Positions 3,001-9,000 of a stretch of 64,000 bases of DNA are shown here, in pieces. How positions within the stretch are numbered: the first letter of the stretch is position 1; each line of letters begins with the position of its first letter. Source of the stretch: Alphaproteobacteria bacterium (GTDB lineage: Bacteria > Pseudomonadota > Alphaproteobacteria > RF32 > CAG-239); assembly GCA_045611785.1 (NCBI GenBank), contig JAZKXV010000021.1, forward strand, positions 14,903 to 78,902, in the 5' to 3' direction. Position numbers: made by a program.

Positions 3001-6000
3001 AGTGTTTCCGTCGCCAATTTTAACAGAATTTACAAACTCATTTTGTTTACTTTCACTCTTAAGTAAATCTTCAGTAACTGTAAGCTTCTCACCAATAATA
3101 ACTTCAGGCTTGTTGTTTGTGGCATTATATCCGGCAGAAATAAATTTACCGCCATCACCGGCTGAAAATGTTGCATCATCATCCATTGCCAAAGAAACAC
3201 TGCCTTTTACTACCAAACCCTTTTCATTAATTTGAACACCTCCAGTGTCATCCACAAACATAGTATCGCCCACTATATTAACAGATCCTTCAGCATTATT
3301 AGCCTCGATTAAATCGTAATAATTAAAACTGTCTTCATCAACAAAAAACTCTCCTCCGATAGCTTCTAATGAACCGCTTATCATAGCATCTTTGTTGCCG
3401 CCAATTACTAAGCCATAATCATCTGCTGCTTCAGCGTTCTCTCCGATAACTACTTGTGAAGCACCAATAATTTTGTGCATAACGGTGTCAGTTTCAGCCA
3501 TATACAAGTCTGTACGCATAGTGTTGCGCCATTTTTCTCCATCTCCGGCAGGTGTACTTTGTAAATATATTTCGTTTTCTAATGCGCCGGAAGTTGCAGA
3601 GTTAATTGCTTCTGTTGAGGCAACAACAACAGAACCCATATCGCCATTTAAGCCGAGGTTGCCAACTTCTTCATTGCTCAAGTTCCAAACACCGCCAACA
3701 CCTTTTGCTTCACCGGTATTATTGATGTAACCACCATTACTACCAACCATTGAAGCAATGCGGGCAGCTCTCATCTCGCCGATATCGGTCTTTTTAGGCA
3801 ATTGAACAAACGCCGTAATAGATTTTGTATCTGCGTCAGTAGCTTTTTTCAATGTGATAATTGGGGCATCAAAGTTTTTCAAGCTGTCAAAGCTGTAACC
3901 ATATGGCAAAAAGCCCAAAAACTCTGCGTCATCTAAGGCAATTGAAATTGTATCATTAGCACCCCAAGCGGCATCATCTTCTAACAAAGCCTGATAATTT
4001 TTTGAAACATAATTATCAACCGCATTTGACAATGTACGGATGTGGTTTGCCGTGTTAATATCTTGTAACTCGGTTGTTCTCTCTGCCGATTTTTTATACA
4101 GCGTTGGAGTAACAAGTGCAATCAACGCAAGCATAGCCATAGCCTCTACCATCATAGAACCGCCTTGGTTGATTTTATTTAATATTTTTTTACGAAAATC
4201 AGTCATTTACTTTCTCCTAACCATATATACGCTGAAAAGCATACAAGCAGTGAACTTTTTCATTTAAACATTTTGAAAACTCGGGATAATTTTGTATTTC
4301 GTGGAAAATTTCCTGTTGTTCAAAATAAGGGTCTCCCTCTTTATTGCCTTCTTCATCATAATCTTGCACCATGCGACCGCCACTTAACATAAGTTTGCCG
4401 TCAACATACTCAGTATAGCCAAACCTTTTACCAAAGCCCGGAGCTTTTGCCATTGCGCCCAACAAATCGGCACTAGGTAAAAATGTAACTTTATTAACCC
4501 AACGAGATGGAATTTCTCTGTAAGAAACAACATATATTGCAACGCCCTCGTCTGTGCAGCAGCTTCCGTCAACTGAATAAGTGCAGTTAGATGCTTCAGG
4601 CTTATCTTCTTCAAGGCAGATAACCCGAGTGGTTACGGCAGGATCATCTGTGTAACCATGAGGCAAAAAGCCCTCAATTTTGGCAGACTCGATAGAAGTT
4701 TCTCCCTCGGGCAAATTATAACCGTTTCCGGGATAATAAGAAACAGCGGTATCCCCCGTTTTTGCACGGGCTTGCGAGTTAAAATATTCTCTAAGAGCGT
4801 TATGTTGAGCGGTAAATTTTGTTACAACGACACCCGCTCTCGATTCTGCGTGTGTACGGTCTAAATCGGCCCGAACAGACATATTGAACGAGTATAAAAT
4901 AGTGATAAATGTTGCAACAACAACCCAAATATACATAGTTTTTCCCACAAAATAAGCTTACTTTAATTGAATGTTAGCATAAAAAAACCTTAAAAACTAG
5001 TGTTTTATGCTATGCGTACAAAATGTTCATATTTTTGTAACACTGCAAACATACTAATCTTGGCAAGTAAAAATTTAATTAAAAATTTTGTTTTTTATTG
5101 CCTTATTGCACGAGTATGACAAAGAAGAAGAACTCTCCGTTCGGGGTTGATGTATAACAACCGCCACCAAGCGTCACCCTCTGGCTTGACCAGGGGGTCC
5201 AGGTTAAAAAATATTGCTATATAAATCTCCTAGATACCCGTGTCTATTCCTCACTTTGTTCGGGCACGAGTATGACAAAGGATAAGAACACTTCGTTCAG
5301 GGGTTGATATAACATAAGAGAGGGCTTGACCAAACAACATACACCAGTATAATATACTTTTATGAAAACAATGTATGTATACATAATGAGCAACCAACAA
5401 AACGGAACACTTTATATTGGTGTTACCAATAATTTGGTGCGTCGAGTTTATGAACATAAAAACAAAATATTTGAAGGCTTTACATCTAAATATAATTTAA
5501 GCAAGCTTGTTTATTATGAAATATTTGAAGATGAACTAACCGCCATCACTCGTGAAAAACAGCTTAAAAAGTATAATCGCAATTGGAAAAAAGACCTCAT
5601 TGAATCTATTAATCCGACTTGGAAAGATTTATACCCTGAAATATGTTCCTAATCGGTACCACAAGACACCCAAAACATGTCATTATCGGGCTTGGAGTTG
5701 ATAGTTGGCGAAAACGAGCGTTGCGAAGTTTGAGGCTTACGAAACGAAATGGACCCACAACGTGGGAATTTACTCCCGATAATCCAGGTTAAAAAATGTT
5801 GCCTTATTATTCCCTGGATACCCGTGTCTATTCCTCGCTATGCTCGGGCACGAGTATGACAGAAAGAAAAAAACGCACCACTCGGGCACGAGTATGACAA
5901 ACCTACTCACACTGTCACCTTCCAACTTGATTGGAAGGTCCAGGTTAAAAAATATTGCTTTATAAATCCTCAAATACCCGTGTCTATTCCTCACTTCGTT

Positions 6001-9000
6001 CGGGCACGAGTATGACAAAGGAAGAGGGAAACTCCGTTCAGGGTTGATGTATAACAATATAAAAAAAAGAAGAAGTTTTCACCTCTTCCTTTTTTGTAAG
6101 TATTGTAAGTACAACCCTTGGAACGATTATTAGTAGTATTTCCAAGCAACTGAGTTAATAGTACCGTTACCGTTACAAGCATCAACTGCTGCAGTAACAG
6201 GCATTGGTGTAGCATTTGCCCCTGTAAAATTCGTAGAACCACCACCAGGAACTGCAACAGCAGGTGTACCAGCAGCGAAAGGAGCCATTGCTGGTTCTTC
6301 TTCTGGGTCTTCAGCTTCATTACTAGCGCTTGCTACAAATTTATCTGTATAAGCACCTGCTATAAGGCTTGCAGCGCCAGCACTATTTTGTGCAGAGATA
6401 CCTAATAAACCTGAAGATTGACCAGAACCCCAGTCACCTGTTGCGATTGTTACACAAGCTTCTTGTGATAAGCCTGCATATTCAATGATGAAGGCTTCAG
6501 GTTCGGTTGGTGCTGTAGAACGAGCTGCAGCTGATGTAATTGTCACATCGCCACCGAAAGCATTAACAAGACTACCATTTTTAATCATATCATTTGGCAC
6601 AACACCAAAGTTAATTGCTGTTGTATTATTTAAGCCAGAGTAGTTACCTTGTGTAGAATAGATTGTTCTGATGTTTGCCACCAACATTGAAACTTGGTCT
6701 GTTGTTTTGTTGATTTTGAATTTGTTCATAGCTTTAGAATAACCGGCGATACCACCAACAGATAACACACCGATAATTGCTAAAACGCCGAGCATTTCAA
6801 CCATTGAACGACCTGATTCATTTGTATATTTCATAATTATCTTCCTTTTTTTAAATAAGTTACTTACATAAAAAAATCGCTCTTATAAAAAAAGCGACTG
6901 GAAGCTAAGAACTATAATAACGAAATAGCGCGGTATATTGACCGCAAGGCTTATTTTACCGCCTTCCAGTCATTTATTTAAATAACTAGTCGGCGTATAA
7001 ATTTTAACGTCCCTATACTAAAGACGCGTTATTTCGGAATTCTTAGGCTCCGGACAGCCAACTCGACTGTCTGGTTTAAATTCTTAGTACAAAAAAATTA
7101 AAATGTCAATAGTGTTATGTGTTTTGATTTTTTTTACAGTTAAGCAATTGTCACCCTCTGGCTTTGACCCGATAATCCAGGTCAAAAACATTGCCTTATA
7201 AATTCCCTGGATACTTGTGTCTATTCCTCACTTCGTTCGGGCATGAGTATGATAAAGGAAAGGACACAAAAAAAGAGGTGGTAAAACCACCTCTTAATCT
7301 ATCCAAATGTTATAAGAATTGCTTCGCCACAACCATAAGGGTCTTGTGTTTGCATTTGGCAACTATAAGCGCCTGTTTTTTGCTTACACTCGTCTGCACT
7401 ACGATAGTTATCAGCTTCGCAACTTGTTGGCTCATAACATCCACTAACTATAGTACATACTGAATTGAAGTTTGTGCTTTCACAATTCGATTCTGATGTA
7501 TATGTACATGTTGTAGCTGATGTACAACCAGTTGTCGCATCACACCAATATGGTGATGGTGGATATTTTACGTTATTACCATAATATTCGCCTGTTGAGA
7601 CCCAAGTTTTGTTAAAGCCAGAGCTTTTAACTTGCCATGTAACGCCTTTATCAGCCTCAACTTGCAGACTAGCTAAATTAACACCTGCGTCTGTTTCGCT
7701 AAGAGTTCTTGAACCTGTTGAGGTTGTAATAATCTTAGCTTTAGGGGAGTGAATATAAACGTGTGAAGGATTGAAAAAGTATTCATTACTAGCTATTGGA
7801 GCTGTAATATTTAATTCACCAGCTAAATTCATATAGTTTGGTGTAATTCTTGGTGCTGTTGAATTTGTTTCAATAGCCAATTTACTATTAGGTCCAATAG
7901 CTATAGAATTATATGAAATACCTACATTAGATCCAGTATGTTTAACATTGATTTCACCGCCATTTTGCACAGCCATAGTTACGCCATTTGATATATTGGC
8001 ATTGGAAGCCTTAATATTCACAGTACCTTCAACATTAATGCCACTATCTGTCTGACCATACATAGCAACACTGTTTGAACCACCAACTATGTCAATATCT
8101 AATGTTGCTCCACTATATAATGTTAAATCACCCATTTCTGACATATATAATGCACGGTTTGTTGTTCCGCCACGCACTTTGATAGAGTTTTTACCGTTCA
8201 TGACAAATCCGTCATTTTCATCTAACTTCAGAGCATAGTTTTCAGAAGCTGTTGATGTAACATCAATGTTAACATTAGTAAACTCTACATTAAAACCCAA
8301 ATTTATTTCAAATGCAGAGCCATTATTGGCAGTCCATACCATATTTATGTCCTTAACTGCAGCATTATCTGATCTTGTCAAAAATTTTCTGCTTTTCATT
8401 GTTAAAGTATGACCAGCACCATCAATAGTTTTAGCACCAATATTTAAGGCATCAGTAGCTGTATCAGAAGTACCATCGATATTAGCTGCTAAGGTAACTG
8501 TTGTACAAGCTGAATTGCTAAGAGCTGTTGTAAATTCTGAATAATTTGAAACTAAACAGCCATCATCAGCAACGCATTGGCCATTTACAAGCTCATAGCC
8601 ATCGTTGCACATAATTACTTCATAACAACCGTTGTCAGCTAATCCGCATGTAGCTTGCTTATTATTATATTGGCATGTATAAGATGAAACGTAGTTATCT
8701 ACACCATTACATGCACAATCTATTGCTTCGCCAGCAGCATTATACACTACCTTTGCCGAAGAGCAAGATGCTCCGTATGCAAAGCTTGTAATACCTGAAT
8801 CGCATGACACTAAATTATATTGCTCACATGTTTCTATCTTTCGACAAGCTCCATCTGCATATACTTGTCCGGAAGCACATGTCGGTGTGTTAGAAACACA
8901 AGCACCATTGGTTAATGTGTAACCGGATTGACATGTTGTTGTACTTGCCTTGTAGTAGCTTCCAAGGTCTGACATATAGATAGATGTACAATCAAAACCT

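What the first reader, a model, noticed from the sequence alone, without database searches (positions are those of the whole stretch)
4950..7300. Family of roughly 125-bp dispersed intergenic repeats clustered around the pilin genes, with an embedded GIY-YIG gene
At least five full or partial copies of a conserved element (5106-5160, 5173-5314, 5765-5860, 5929-6047, 7143-7258) fill the spacers around the pilin gene. A related palindromic module, gcaattgtcaccctctggctt, occurs once more at 673-720. The full elements are direct repeats, not a CRISPR array (irregular spacing, variable flanks). They resemble Rickettsia palindromic elements in behaviour, inserting into intergenic regions. A 96-aa GIY-YIG nuclease gene sits in the middle of the cluster. 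Repeat clustering around surface-structure genes could mediate recombination or regulation.
Basis: seen in the sequence. Interest (0 to 1): 0.6.

Follow-up and report, generated by a model that had tools for sequence, protein, structure and literature searches.

The report
Hairpin repeats of an SsnA nuclease
The roughly 125-bp repeats are pairs of short DNA hairpins of the known "CGTC-REP / NTS-like" type that accompany a small single-strand-DNA nuclease gene (ssnA), here packed around a pilin gene of an uncultured gut alphaproteobacterium, so this is a new example of a system described in 2025 and not a new kind of element.

Summary
The repeats are real and far above chance. There are four long same-strand copies plus fragments between about 545 and 7254, and none in the other 57 kb of the window.

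Each "125-bp element" is a dimer. One unit is a canonical hairpin: (C/T)GTCA head, 8-9 bp stem, CTTGA loop, TCCAGG tail. The other is an inverted unit with a 22-nt loop. The stems covary between copies and species.

This anatomy matches the CGTC-tagged REPs of Di Nocera 2013, which include Neisseria dRS3 and Rickettsia RPE-4/-6. It also matches the NTS/"Ssn-related motifs" of Chenal 2025.

The embedded 96-aa GIY-YIG gene is therefore most likely the cognate SsnA-type ssDNA nuclease, not a bystander. Homologues (55-88% identity) in at least 8 other genomic contexts and about 20 phyla are flanked by the same head-out hairpins: 60 of 80 loci have at least one, and 34 of 80 have them on both sides.

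The published SRM search string does not match this species' AT-richer units, but it matches those of its closest relatives.

Strain comparison shows a divergent pilin 3' part. It also shows a pilin-less, ssnA-duplicated haplotype whose junctions lie in the repeats.

Verdict: a new member of a known kind, of moderate-low interest.

Separately, the pilin's 5' leader (6835-7090, minus strand) is a strongly covarying structured RNA with no Rfam match. It deserves its own follow-up.

The parts
545..571 (-). Degenerate minus-strand unit (ATACT..TCAAG..AGTATGACA). Strain L001 has a full long-loop unit at this site.
634..668 (-). Minus-strand unit with a bulged stem (CCCCT..CGGTG/CACCG..AGGGG) and a TGACA head. 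A mini unit, TGTCA-TGCCT-CGAC-AGGCA, lies at 585-603 (+).
   Evidence: read from the sequence
679..711 (+). Solo canonical unit X0: TGTCA head, CCCTCTGG/CCAGAGGG stem, CTTAA loop. It sits just beyond the terminator of the 1147-aa gene.
5108..5160 (-). 3' half of a long-loop unit (GCACGAGTATGACA) plus the conserved extension AAGAAGAAGAACTCTCCGTTCGGGGTTGATGTATAACA.
5172..5277 (+). Composite copy 1. X1 (5172-5204): CGTCA head, CCCTCTGG/CCAGGGGG stem, CTTGA loop, TCCAGGT tail. Then an AT-rich linker. Then inverted long-loop unit Y1 (5229-5277): stem ATACCCGTG/CACGAGTAT, 22-nt loop, ATGACA head. The conserved extension runs to about 5314.
5319..5353 (+). ssnA promoter. TTGACC (5326-5331, the loop of a decayed X unit GAGAGGGCTTGACC), a 16-nt spacer, then TATAAT (5348-5353). 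It is the best sigma-70 match in 7 kb and lies only 8 nt before the ATG.
   Evidence: the same arrangement is seen in L013 and L016
5362..5652 (+). ssnA homologue: a 96-aa single-domain GIY-YIG nuclease. Y7, Y18, R28, H32, E65 and N84 are invariant across 16 homologues.
5678..5861 (+). Composite copy 2. X2 is TGTCA-TTATCGGG-CTTG[84-nt insertion, 5691-5774]CCCGATAA-TCCAGGT (5678-5789). Then the linker. Then Y2 (5812-5861).
5882..5899 (-). Isolated 3' half-unit TCGGGCACGAGTATGACA. It is the junction sequence of the tandem ssnA duplication seen in L008.
5913..6017 (+). Composite copy 3. X3 (5913-5945) has the stem CCTTCCAA/TTGGAAGG, fully compensatory relative to X1. Y3 spans 5969-6017. The extension runs to about 6056 and abuts the pilin terminator at 6062-6095.
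7149..7254 (+). Composite copy 4, decayed. X4 is chimeric: its left arm CCCTCTGG is of the X1 type and its right arm CCCGATAA is of the X2 type, so it forms no hairpin. Y4 has C-to-T changes (ACTTGTG/CATGAGT, head ATGATA). It abuts the terminator of the 1840-aa gene at 7273-7295.

Best explanation
The cluster is an Ssn system of an uncultured human-gut alphaproteobacterium: an ssnA gene (a small single-domain GIY-YIG nuclease) together with its cognate hairpin repeats. These repeats are known as 'Ssn-related motifs', NTS-like elements or CGTC-tagged REPs.

Each 125-bp repeat is a tail-to-tail pair of two such hairpins. One is on each strand, with the (C/T)GTCA heads facing outwards. This is the same geometry as hairpin-ssnA-hairpin, but without the gene.

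Inferred from the Neisseria, N. elongata, N. wadsworthii and Wolbachia enzymes: when the locus is single-stranded (replication, recombination or incoming transforming DNA), each hairpin extrudes. SsnA binds it through the stem plus the head and tail nucleotides, and nicks that strand a few nucleotides 5' of the head.

The many near-identical copies also act as portable homology. In different strains they mark the junctions of an ssnA duplication and of a pilin-gene presence/absence polymorphism. They also sit next to the blocks that differ most between strains. The loop of the gene-proximal hairpin doubles as the -35 box of ssnA.

Shown here: repeat anatomy, covariation, linkage to ssnA across contexts and phyla, and strain polymorphism. 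Inferred: ssDNA cleavage and any effect on recombination or pilin variation in this organism.
For: 1. Anatomy. The units have a (C/T)GTCA head, an 8-9 bp stem, a CTTGA loop and a TCCAGG tail. This equals the published description of CGTC REPs (head CGTC/TGTC, 8-9 bp stem, 4-5 nt loop, CCA tail) and of the NTS, CGTCATTCCCGCGMAVGCGGGAATCYRG.

2. Covariation. On 8 homology-selected copies, 12 of 18 stem pairs change on both sides and 88% of cells are paired, against 26-44% in slid controls; 0 of 500 shuffles reach this.

3. Linkage to the gene within the clade. nhmmer with the window's element hits only next to ssnA homologues (74-88% identity) in other genomic contexts: L013/14, L015-23, L024, L104/5, L106, L107 and L108.

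4. Linkage across phyla. Among 80 genomes from about 20 phyla, GTCA-headed hairpins occur at 1.49 per kb within 700 bp of the gene and 0.157 per kb elsewhere. All hairpins together differ only 1.6-fold. 60 of 80 loci have at least one such hairpin, and 34 of 80 have the head-out arrangement on both sides about 35 bp from the ORF. Some flanks equal the Neisseria NTS core exactly (L077, L078).

5. Controls. Loci chosen through the neighbouring 243-aa gene (L109-L113) have no ssnA, no SRM and no element. Pilin-selected loci have background density, 0.12 per kb.

6. Protein. 96 aa, GIY-YIG only. Invariant Y7, Y18 and E65 correspond to the published catalytic Y6, Y17 and E64.

7. Published biochemistry and the association statistics (71% and 42%) are.

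8. Strains. The ssnA-plus-repeats block is 100% identical between the window and L001, while the pilin 3' part is 66-76% identical and 7295-8564 is unalignable. L008/L005 carry two tandem ssnA copies and no pilin, with junctions in the repeats.
Against: - The published degenerate SRM string has 0 matches in the window and in L001-L012. The units pass only on architecture and on homology to regex-positive units of relatives.
- The second unit has a 22-nt loop, outside the published 4-5 nt.
- The immediate canonical flanks of ssnA are decayed. Upstream only a loop remnant is left. Downstream the first unit is inverted relative to the canonical arrangement and is split by 84 nt.
- Copy 4 cannot form either hairpin as DNA.
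- Thermodynamic z-scores of whole copies are weak, -0.1 to -2.4.
- Direct homology to N. meningitidis SsnA and assignment to cd10448 could not be tested.
- Nothing shows that this organism is naturally competent.
- The strain polymorphisms rest on three haplotypes.
Confidence: 0.8

Rival explanations
1. The composites are non-autonomous mobile elements, a REPIN/MITE analogue, copied around the genome by SsnA acting as the mobilising enzyme. Hairpin-ssnA-hairpin would be the autonomous element.
For: - The geometry is the same as the gene-bearing unit (head-out inverted hairpins) but without the ORF.
- The ssnA-plus-hairpin unit sits in at least 8 unrelated neighbourhoods among close relatives.
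- Many homologue contigs are under 2 kb or end beside the gene, as expected for multicopy DNA.
- Chenal 2025 raise the IS-like analogy.
Against: - No filled-versus-empty site pair and no target-site duplication was found.
- No copy lies away from the ssnA patch in 64 kb.
- GIY-YIG enzymes hydrolyse and are not known to join DNA.
- The two cleavable heads of a dimer lie on opposite strands, unlike IS200/IS605-type single-strand excision.
- ssnA looks single-copy per genome here.
Confidence: 0.25
2. The repeats are merely local duplications and decay products of one ancestral ssnA flank, with no present function. They act as passive homology at most.
For: - All copies are within 6.8 kb and on one strand.
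- Half-units, a chimeric hairpin (X4) and an interrupted hairpin (X2) show ongoing decay.
- L008 shows that unequal recombination does duplicate the block.
Against: - Hairpin stems are maintained by compensatory changes between copies in the same locus. X1 has CCCTCTGG/CCAGGGGG and X3 has CCTTCCAA/TTGGAAGG.
- The same holds across species, and the dimer architecture is conserved in L013, L024 and L104.
- The block is 100% identical between strains whose neighbours differ.
Confidence: 0.2
3. The elements work as RNA: sibling small RNAs, or terminators, stabilisers or promoters for the pilin and neighbouring genes.
For: - Copy 4's substitutions keep pairing only through G-U pairs on the + strand.
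- The unit loop CTTGAC gives a -35 box that is used for ssnA.
- Di Nocera 2013 suggest that many REPs are transcribed.
Against: - The copies lie beyond the intrinsic terminators of the minus-strand genes, so they are not part of those mRNAs.
- No convincing own promoter plus terminator was found for the + strand.
- RNA folding z-scores are weak, -0.75 to -2.4.
- There is no Rfam match.
- Published SsnA does not bind RNA.
Confidence: 0.1

Closest known systems
NTS / Ssn-related motifs with SsnA (Chenal et al., Nat Commun 2025, PMC11893778)
   Same: - A small single-domain GIY-YIG gene flanked by oriented hairpin repeats with a CGTC/TGTC head and a C(C/T)(A/G)G tail.
- Repeats clustered next to surface-protein genes that vary between strains.
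- The catalytic Tyr/Tyr/Glu residues are conserved.
- The closest relatives' repeats match the published SRM string.
   Different: - This species' units do not match the SRM string, because of AT-richer stems.
- One partner of each dimer has a conserved 22-nt loop.
- Only about a dozen units are seen in 64 kb, all in one patch, against hundreds genome-wide in pathogenic Neisseria.
- No biochemical or transformation data exist for this organism.
CGTC-tagged REPs (Di Nocera et al. 2013, PMC3733652), including Neisseria dRS3 and Rickettsia RPE-4/RPE-6
   Same: - Head CGTC or TGTC, 8-9 bp stem, 5-nt loop, CCA tail.
- Predominance in Alphaproteobacteria.
- Units paired in opposite orientation, often as heterodimers.
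- Location downstream of genes.
   Different: - That paper reports head-to-head dimers as predominant and tail-to-tail as rare. Here the dimers are tail-to-tail.
- The long-loop unit falls outside their loop range.
- They found no dedicated enzyme, whereas here the units sit with ssnA.
REP/REPIN-RAYT systems and BIMEs
   Same: - Short tagged palindromes, paired into inverted dimers and mosaics.
- A single-copy nuclease gene is itself flanked by the repeats.
- The recognised form is a ssDNA hairpin.
   Different: - The tag is GTAG, not CGTC.
- The enzyme is an HUH/Y1 tyrosine transposase able to cut and rejoin, not a hydrolytic GIY-YIG nuclease.
- No RAYT is present in the window.

Membership tests
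Ssn nuclease family (SsnA, cd10448) | Single-domain GIY-YIG protein of about 94 aa with no extra DNA-binding domain | tested here: met
   The protein is 96 aa. PF01541 covers residues 4-76 and no other domain is found. Homologues are 88-110 aa.
Ssn nuclease family (SsnA, cd10448) | Catalytic residues equivalent to Nm SsnA Y6, Y17 and E64 | tested here: met
   Y7, Y18 and E65 (plus R28, H32, N84) are invariant in a 16-sequence alignment spanning several phyla.
Ssn nuclease family (SsnA, cd10448) | Homology to N. meningitidis SsnA (E<1e-10) and CDD assignment cd10448 | not testable with these tools
   No CDD library and no Nm SsnA sequence were available, and no supplements are held. PDB gives only a weak SLX1 hit. 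NCBIfam has no model. Indirect evidence: homologues at 55-66% identity are flanked by exact NTS cores (L077, L078, L097).
Ssn nuclease family (SsnA, cd10448) | Gene flanked on both sides by oriented hairpin repeats | tested here: inconclusive
   Repeats lie within 85 bp upstream and 26 bp downstream of the gene. However, the canonical head-out units are decayed, and the nearest intact units are parts of composites in other orientations. Canonical flanks are present in 34 of 80 homologue loci.
Ssn-related motif (SRM) | Match to the published search string HGTCWYN(0-2)YYVSBRHN(0-5)WNVSBRGN(0-2)RNCYNB | tested here: not met
   There are 0 matches in the window (0.04 expected) and in L001-L012. 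Matches occur beside ssnA in L013-L024 and L104-L108, and in 38 of 80 diverse loci. The window's elements are homologous to those regex-positive elements (nhmmer E 9e-18 to 5e-9).
Ssn-related motif (SRM) | Bound and cut by the cognate SsnA as ssDNA only, on one strand, a few nt 5' of the head | not testable with these tools
   This needs biochemistry. The published data cover 4 other homologues.
CGTC-tagged REP | Unpaired CGTC/TGTC head, 8-9 bp stem, CCA tail | tested here: met
   X0, X1, X2 and X3, and Y1-Y3 read on the minus strand, all have these features. The stems covary.
CGTC-tagged REP | Loop of 4-5 nt | tested here: inconclusive
   Met by the X units (CTTGA/CTTAA). Not met by the Y units, whose 22-nt loop is conserved in L013 and L024.
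REPIN/RAYT | GTAG-tagged REP and an IS200/IS605-type Y1 transposase | tested here: not met
   The head is (C/T)GTCA. The only nuclease in the cluster is GIY-YIG.
Rickettsia palindromic elements | Insertion into coding sequences in frame, and sequence membership in RPE-1 to RPE-8 | not tested
   No in-gene copy exists in the window. No RPE sequences were compared. The link is through Di Nocera's assignment of RPE-4 and RPE-6 to CGTC REPs.
CRISPR array | Regularly spaced identical repeats with unique spacers, and cas genes | tested here: not met
   Spacings are irregular (584, 156 and 1237 bp), the copies are 72-84% identical, and there are no cas genes.

The most novel reading that the evidence does not exclude
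Hairpin-ssnA-hairpin units and their ORF-less dimers form a genuinely mobile autonomous/non-autonomous pair driven by a hydrolytic GIY-YIG ssDNA nuclease, which would be a transposition or homing route not yet described. In this gut alphaproteobacterium they would have been recruited as portable borders that drive exchange, loss and duplication of the type IVb pilin cassette.
Probability: 0.2. Interest if true: 0.7.

Novelty: new member of a known kind. Interest (0 to 1): 0.35.

Why it matters
- It extends the SsnA/SRM system to uncultured human-gut Alphaproteobacteria.
- It shows that the published SRM search string misses AT-rich and long-loop variants, so SRM counts in low-GC genomes are underestimates.
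- It documents a conserved heterodimer made of a short-loop and a long-loop hairpin, which gives two candidate substrates for one enzyme.
- It repeats, in a distant lineage and with a type IVb pilin, the Neisseria pattern in which such repeats crowd around variable surface-structure genes. dRS3 was first described at pilS loci. This supports a general link between these repeats and surface-antigen variation.
- For the scan, it reclassifies a 'mystery repeat' as an already explained system.

Tried and rejected
- **Exact-pattern scans.** GTGTCTATTCCTCN8TCGGGCAYGAGTATGA in genome contigs gave 0 hits. ACCCGTGTCTATTN{8,30}GGCACGAGTATGA in metagenome contigs and viral contigs gave 0 hits. The species' own repeat sequence is therefore not in those collections, and a genome-wide copy count was impossible.
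- **Rfam.** No match at gathering threshold for the whole window. At E<=1 on 400-7400 the only hit was a chance match at a terminator.
- **Literature.** Searches pairing GIY-YIG with REP, COG2827 or inverted repeats found nothing useful. Pairing it with 'CGTC' found the key paper.
- **Solved structures and NCBIfam.** No Ssn entry in either. The paper's supplements are not held.
- **Search for an empty site.** Homologues of the neighbouring 243-aa gene are too divergent (45-69% identity) and sit in other contexts. They served only as negative controls.
- **oriC idea.** I considered an origin at the GC-skew and strand switch near 42 kb and rejected it: no DnaA-box cluster is there.
- **CRISPR and RAYT/REPIN membership.** Rejected (see the membership tests).

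
Full report
**Observation.** The window between about 545 and 7254 carries a real repeat family, all on the + strand. Three core oligonucleotides of 15-21 nt occur 6, 4 and 3 times at up to 2-3 mismatches, against 0.01-0.04 expected. None occurs elsewhere in the 64 kb. Copy 2 begins at 5678, not 5765. Copy 3 begins at 5913. There is an extra half-unit at 5882-5899. Degenerate units accompany the 679-711 hairpin. 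The genes are:
- a 243-aa unknown (4217-4948, -);
- a 96-aa GIY-YIG protein (5362-5652, +);
- a type IVb pilin (6130-6834, -);
- a 1840-aa Cys-rich protein (7299-12821, -).

The wider window holds MlaA/MlaC, VirB4/8/9/11-like and TcpQ genes. The best named protein relatives are 'MAG: Alphaproteobacteria bacterium', and related contigs come from human-gut metagenomes.

**Anatomy.** Aligning the copies shows that the '125-bp element' is a dimer of two hairpin units.
- Unit X, on the + strand, has a (C/T)GTCA head, an 8-bp stem, a CTTGA loop, the complementary arm, and a TCCAGGT tail.
- Unit Y is the same kind of unit on the minus strand. Read on that strand it is TGTCAT, then ACTCGTG, then a 22-nt loop, then CACGGGT, then ATC(C/T)AGG.

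The two heads therefore face outwards, with an AT-rich linker between the tails. Stems differ between copies by fully compensatory changes: X1 has CCCTCTGG/CCAGGGGG, X3 has CCTTCCAA/TTGGAAGG, and X2 has TTATCGGG/CCCGATAA. On eight copies gathered by sequence homology rather than by structure, from the window, L001, L005, L013, L016 and L024:
- 12 of 18 pairs change on both sides;
- 88% of cells pair, against 26-44% when partners are slid;
- no shuffle out of 500 reaches this.

As ssDNA, X1 and X3 fold robustly and Y3 folds moderately. Copy 4 does not fold, because X4 is a chimera of two stem types and Y4 has C-to-T changes. Whole-copy folding z-scores are weak, -0.1 to -2.4, so covariation is the main structural evidence, not energy.

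**Link to the GIY-YIG gene.** The exact protein occurs on five contigs at the same locus in other samples. Close homologues (74-88% identity) lie in unrelated neighbourhoods: AhpC/LRR/YmdB, response regulator/Rpe, PNPase, DUF378 and others. A profile of the window's element hits those loci only next to the gene, with E from 9e-18 to 5e-9.

A genome scan with the protein returned 80 loci from about 20 phyla at 55-77% identity. My hairpin scan of these (stem of at least 7, at most 1 mismatch, loop 3-8, GTCA within 6 nt) gave the following:
- 1.49 headed hairpins per kb within 700 bp of the gene, against 0.157 per kb elsewhere. All hairpins together differ only 1.6-fold (5.1 against 3.1 per kb over all 104 loci).
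- 60 of 80 loci have at least one headed hairpin.
- 34 of 80 have the canonical layout. That layout is tGTCAT-stem-loop-stem-ATCCAG about 38 bp before the ORF and its inverted copy about 34 bp after it.

Two kinds of control loci were examined. Loci chosen through the neighbouring 243-aa gene contain no such gene, unit or element. Pilin-selected loci show background density.

**Comparison with the literature.** The units fit the 'CGTC-tagged REPs' of Di Nocera et al. 2013. These have a CGTC or TGTC head, an 8-9 bp stem, a 4-5 nt loop and a CCA tail. They are mostly alphaproteobacterial and often form dimers. They include Neisseria dRS3 and Rickettsia RPE-4/-6, and that paper reported no dedicated transposase.

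Chenal et al. 2025 then showed several things:
- The 94-aa single-domain GIY-YIG protein SsnA of N. meningitidis binds the NTS (CGTCATTCCCGCGMAVGCGGGAATCYRG) as ssDNA only.
- It cuts a few nt upstream of the head, on one strand only.
- 71% of homologues have at least one 'Ssn-related motif' nearby, and 42% have them on both sides.
- NTS cluster around surface and virulence genes.
- SsnA lowers transformation by NTS-bearing DNA.

My independent counts (75% of loci with at least one unit, 42% with both sides) agree. Some flanks in my set equal the NTS core exactly (L077, L078). The window protein keeps Y7, Y18 and E65, which correspond to the published catalytic Y6, Y17 and E64.

**Membership caveats.** The published degenerate SRM string has no match in the window or in the same-species loci L001-L012. 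It does match the units beside the closest homologues, and 38 of 80 diverse loci. The failures come from A/T at positions the string requires to be G/C, and from the 22-nt loop. Assignment to cd10448 and direct homology to Nm SsnA could not be tested. The canonical head-out units right at the gene are decayed. Upstream only GAGAGGGCTTGACC remains. Its TTGACC serves as the -35 of the best promoter match in 7 kb (TTGACC, 16 nt, TATAAT, ending 8 nt before the ATG). The same use of the hairpin loop as a -35 box is visible in L013 and L016.

**Behaviour in populations.**
- Between the window and strain L001, the ssnA-plus-repeats block (5000-6000) is 100% identical.
- The pilin's 3' two-thirds are only 66-76% identical.
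- 7295-8564, the 3' end of the 1840-aa gene, cannot be aligned.
- Each variable block begins within about 40-80 bp of a composite copy.
- A third haplotype (L008, L005, L010-12) has two tandem ssnA copies with a period of about 623 bp. The junction lies in the 18-nt half-unit TCGGGCACGAGTATGACA.
- That haplotype lacks the pilin and its leader. A Y unit is followed directly by the terminator and the 3' end of the large gene, as expected from recombination between direct copies 2 and 4.

This rests on three haplotypes and is consistent with repeat-mediated exchange, but does not prove it.

**Dispersal.** This genome cannot be called 'dispersed'. All units seen lie in one 6.8-kb patch of 64 kb plus 4.6 kb of extra flank, and exact-pattern scans of three collections found nothing. 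Mobility of the gene-plus-hairpin unit between loci over evolutionary time is supported by the varied contexts. No filled/empty pair or target duplication was found.

**Verdict.** This is a real feature and a new member of the SsnA/SRM (CGTC-REP) system. It has variant units and a notable pilin-side cluster, but it is not a new kind of element.

**A separate feature in the same coordinates.** The pilin's 244-nt leader (6835-7078, minus strand) folds with z = -6.5. It has homologues upstream of pilin genes in at least 15 metagenomic loci. On 14 sequences:
- 54 pairs in 8 helices show 98% pairing;
- 18 pairs carry compensatory changes;
- no shuffle out of 500 reaches this, and slid controls give 31-44% pairing.

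The invariant GGCUGGAAGG can pair with two partners. One is CCUUCUAG, paired in 97% of cells. The other is CUUCCAGYC, paired in 100% of cells with 2 covarying pairs. The latter overlaps a terminator stem and is complementary to the Shine-Dalgarno sequence, so the leader has switch-like logic. Rfam gives only sub-threshold full-length matches of the 3' half to sRNA-Xcc1, at 28-30 bits against a gathering score of 53.

Noticed in passing
window 6835-7090, minus strand (5' leader of the pilin gene 6130-6834): A strongly structured, conserved leader RNA.
- MFE is -78.3 against -49.5+/-4.4 for shuffles, z = -6.5.
- Homologues lie upstream of pilin genes in at least 15 metagenome loci.
- On 14 sequences, 54 pairs are 98% paired, 18 pairs have compensatory changes, and 0 of 500 shuffles reach this.
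- It is a multi-way junction followed by a terminator-like hairpin plus U-run (6899-6875).
- The invariant GGCUGGAAGG has two mutually exclusive conserved partners. One of them overlaps the terminator stem and can pair with the SD.
- There is no Rfam family at threshold. The 3' half gives sub-threshold full-length hits to sRNA-Xcc1 (RF02221) at 28-30 bits.

It is a candidate new riboswitch- or attenuator-type leader of type IVb pilin genes.
   Followed up: partly
L123, L137, L154, L175, L178 (pilin-selected metagenome loci): An ssnA homologue (58-64% identity) lies within 1.5 kb of a pilin homologue in 5 of 69 loci chosen only through the pilin. L154 has a canonical hairpin-ssnA-hairpin unit. 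Overall hairpin density in these loci is at background, 0.12 per kb. The ssnA-pilin adjacency therefore recurs in some lineages but is not general.
   Followed up: partly
window 7149-7182: Hairpin X4 is a chimera. Its left arm CCCTCTGG matches X0/X1 and its right arm CCCGATAA matches X2, joined in the loop (CTTTGA). This suggests recombination or conversion between units within the conserved loop. The same chimera is present in strain L001.
   Followed up: no
window 5691-5774: An 84-nt insertion sits inside the loop of hairpin X2, between TGTCATTATCGGGCTTG and CCCGATAATCCAGGT. It is also present in L005 and its origin is unknown.
   Followed up: no
window 5326-5364: The ssnA promoter TTGACC-16-TATAAT ends 8 nt before the ATG, and no Shine-Dalgarno sequence is visible. 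This implies a leaderless or near-leaderless mRNA (inference).
   Followed up: no
L001 1561-5405 versus L106 2185-5850: The truB-rpsO-pnp block has the opposite orientation relative to the neighbouring 192-aa gene in two related species. In both, SRM units (and ssnA in L106) lie at one border. This may be a repeat-associated inversion.
   Followed up: no
window 15740-41139 and 42359-53449: The minus-strand block encodes VirB11-like, VirB9/CagX, two VirB8 and VirB4/CagE homologues, interleaved with giant ORFs (1418, 1702 and 1410 aa). The plus-strand block starts with unknowns and a TcpQ-domain protein, suggesting type IVb pilus machinery. GC skew and gene strand switch at about 42 kb, but there is no DnaA-box cluster there, so these are divergent operons rather than an origin.
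   Followed up: partly
window 763-4948 (1147-aa and 243-aa genes): This gene pair has no Pfam match. The 1147-aa protein has a prepilin-like N-terminus (GGSMMVEAMAMLALIALV). The pair is conserved as a pair in related gut/rumen alphaproteobacterial MAGs, in different neighbourhoods and without ssnA or a pilin alongside.
   Followed up: partly
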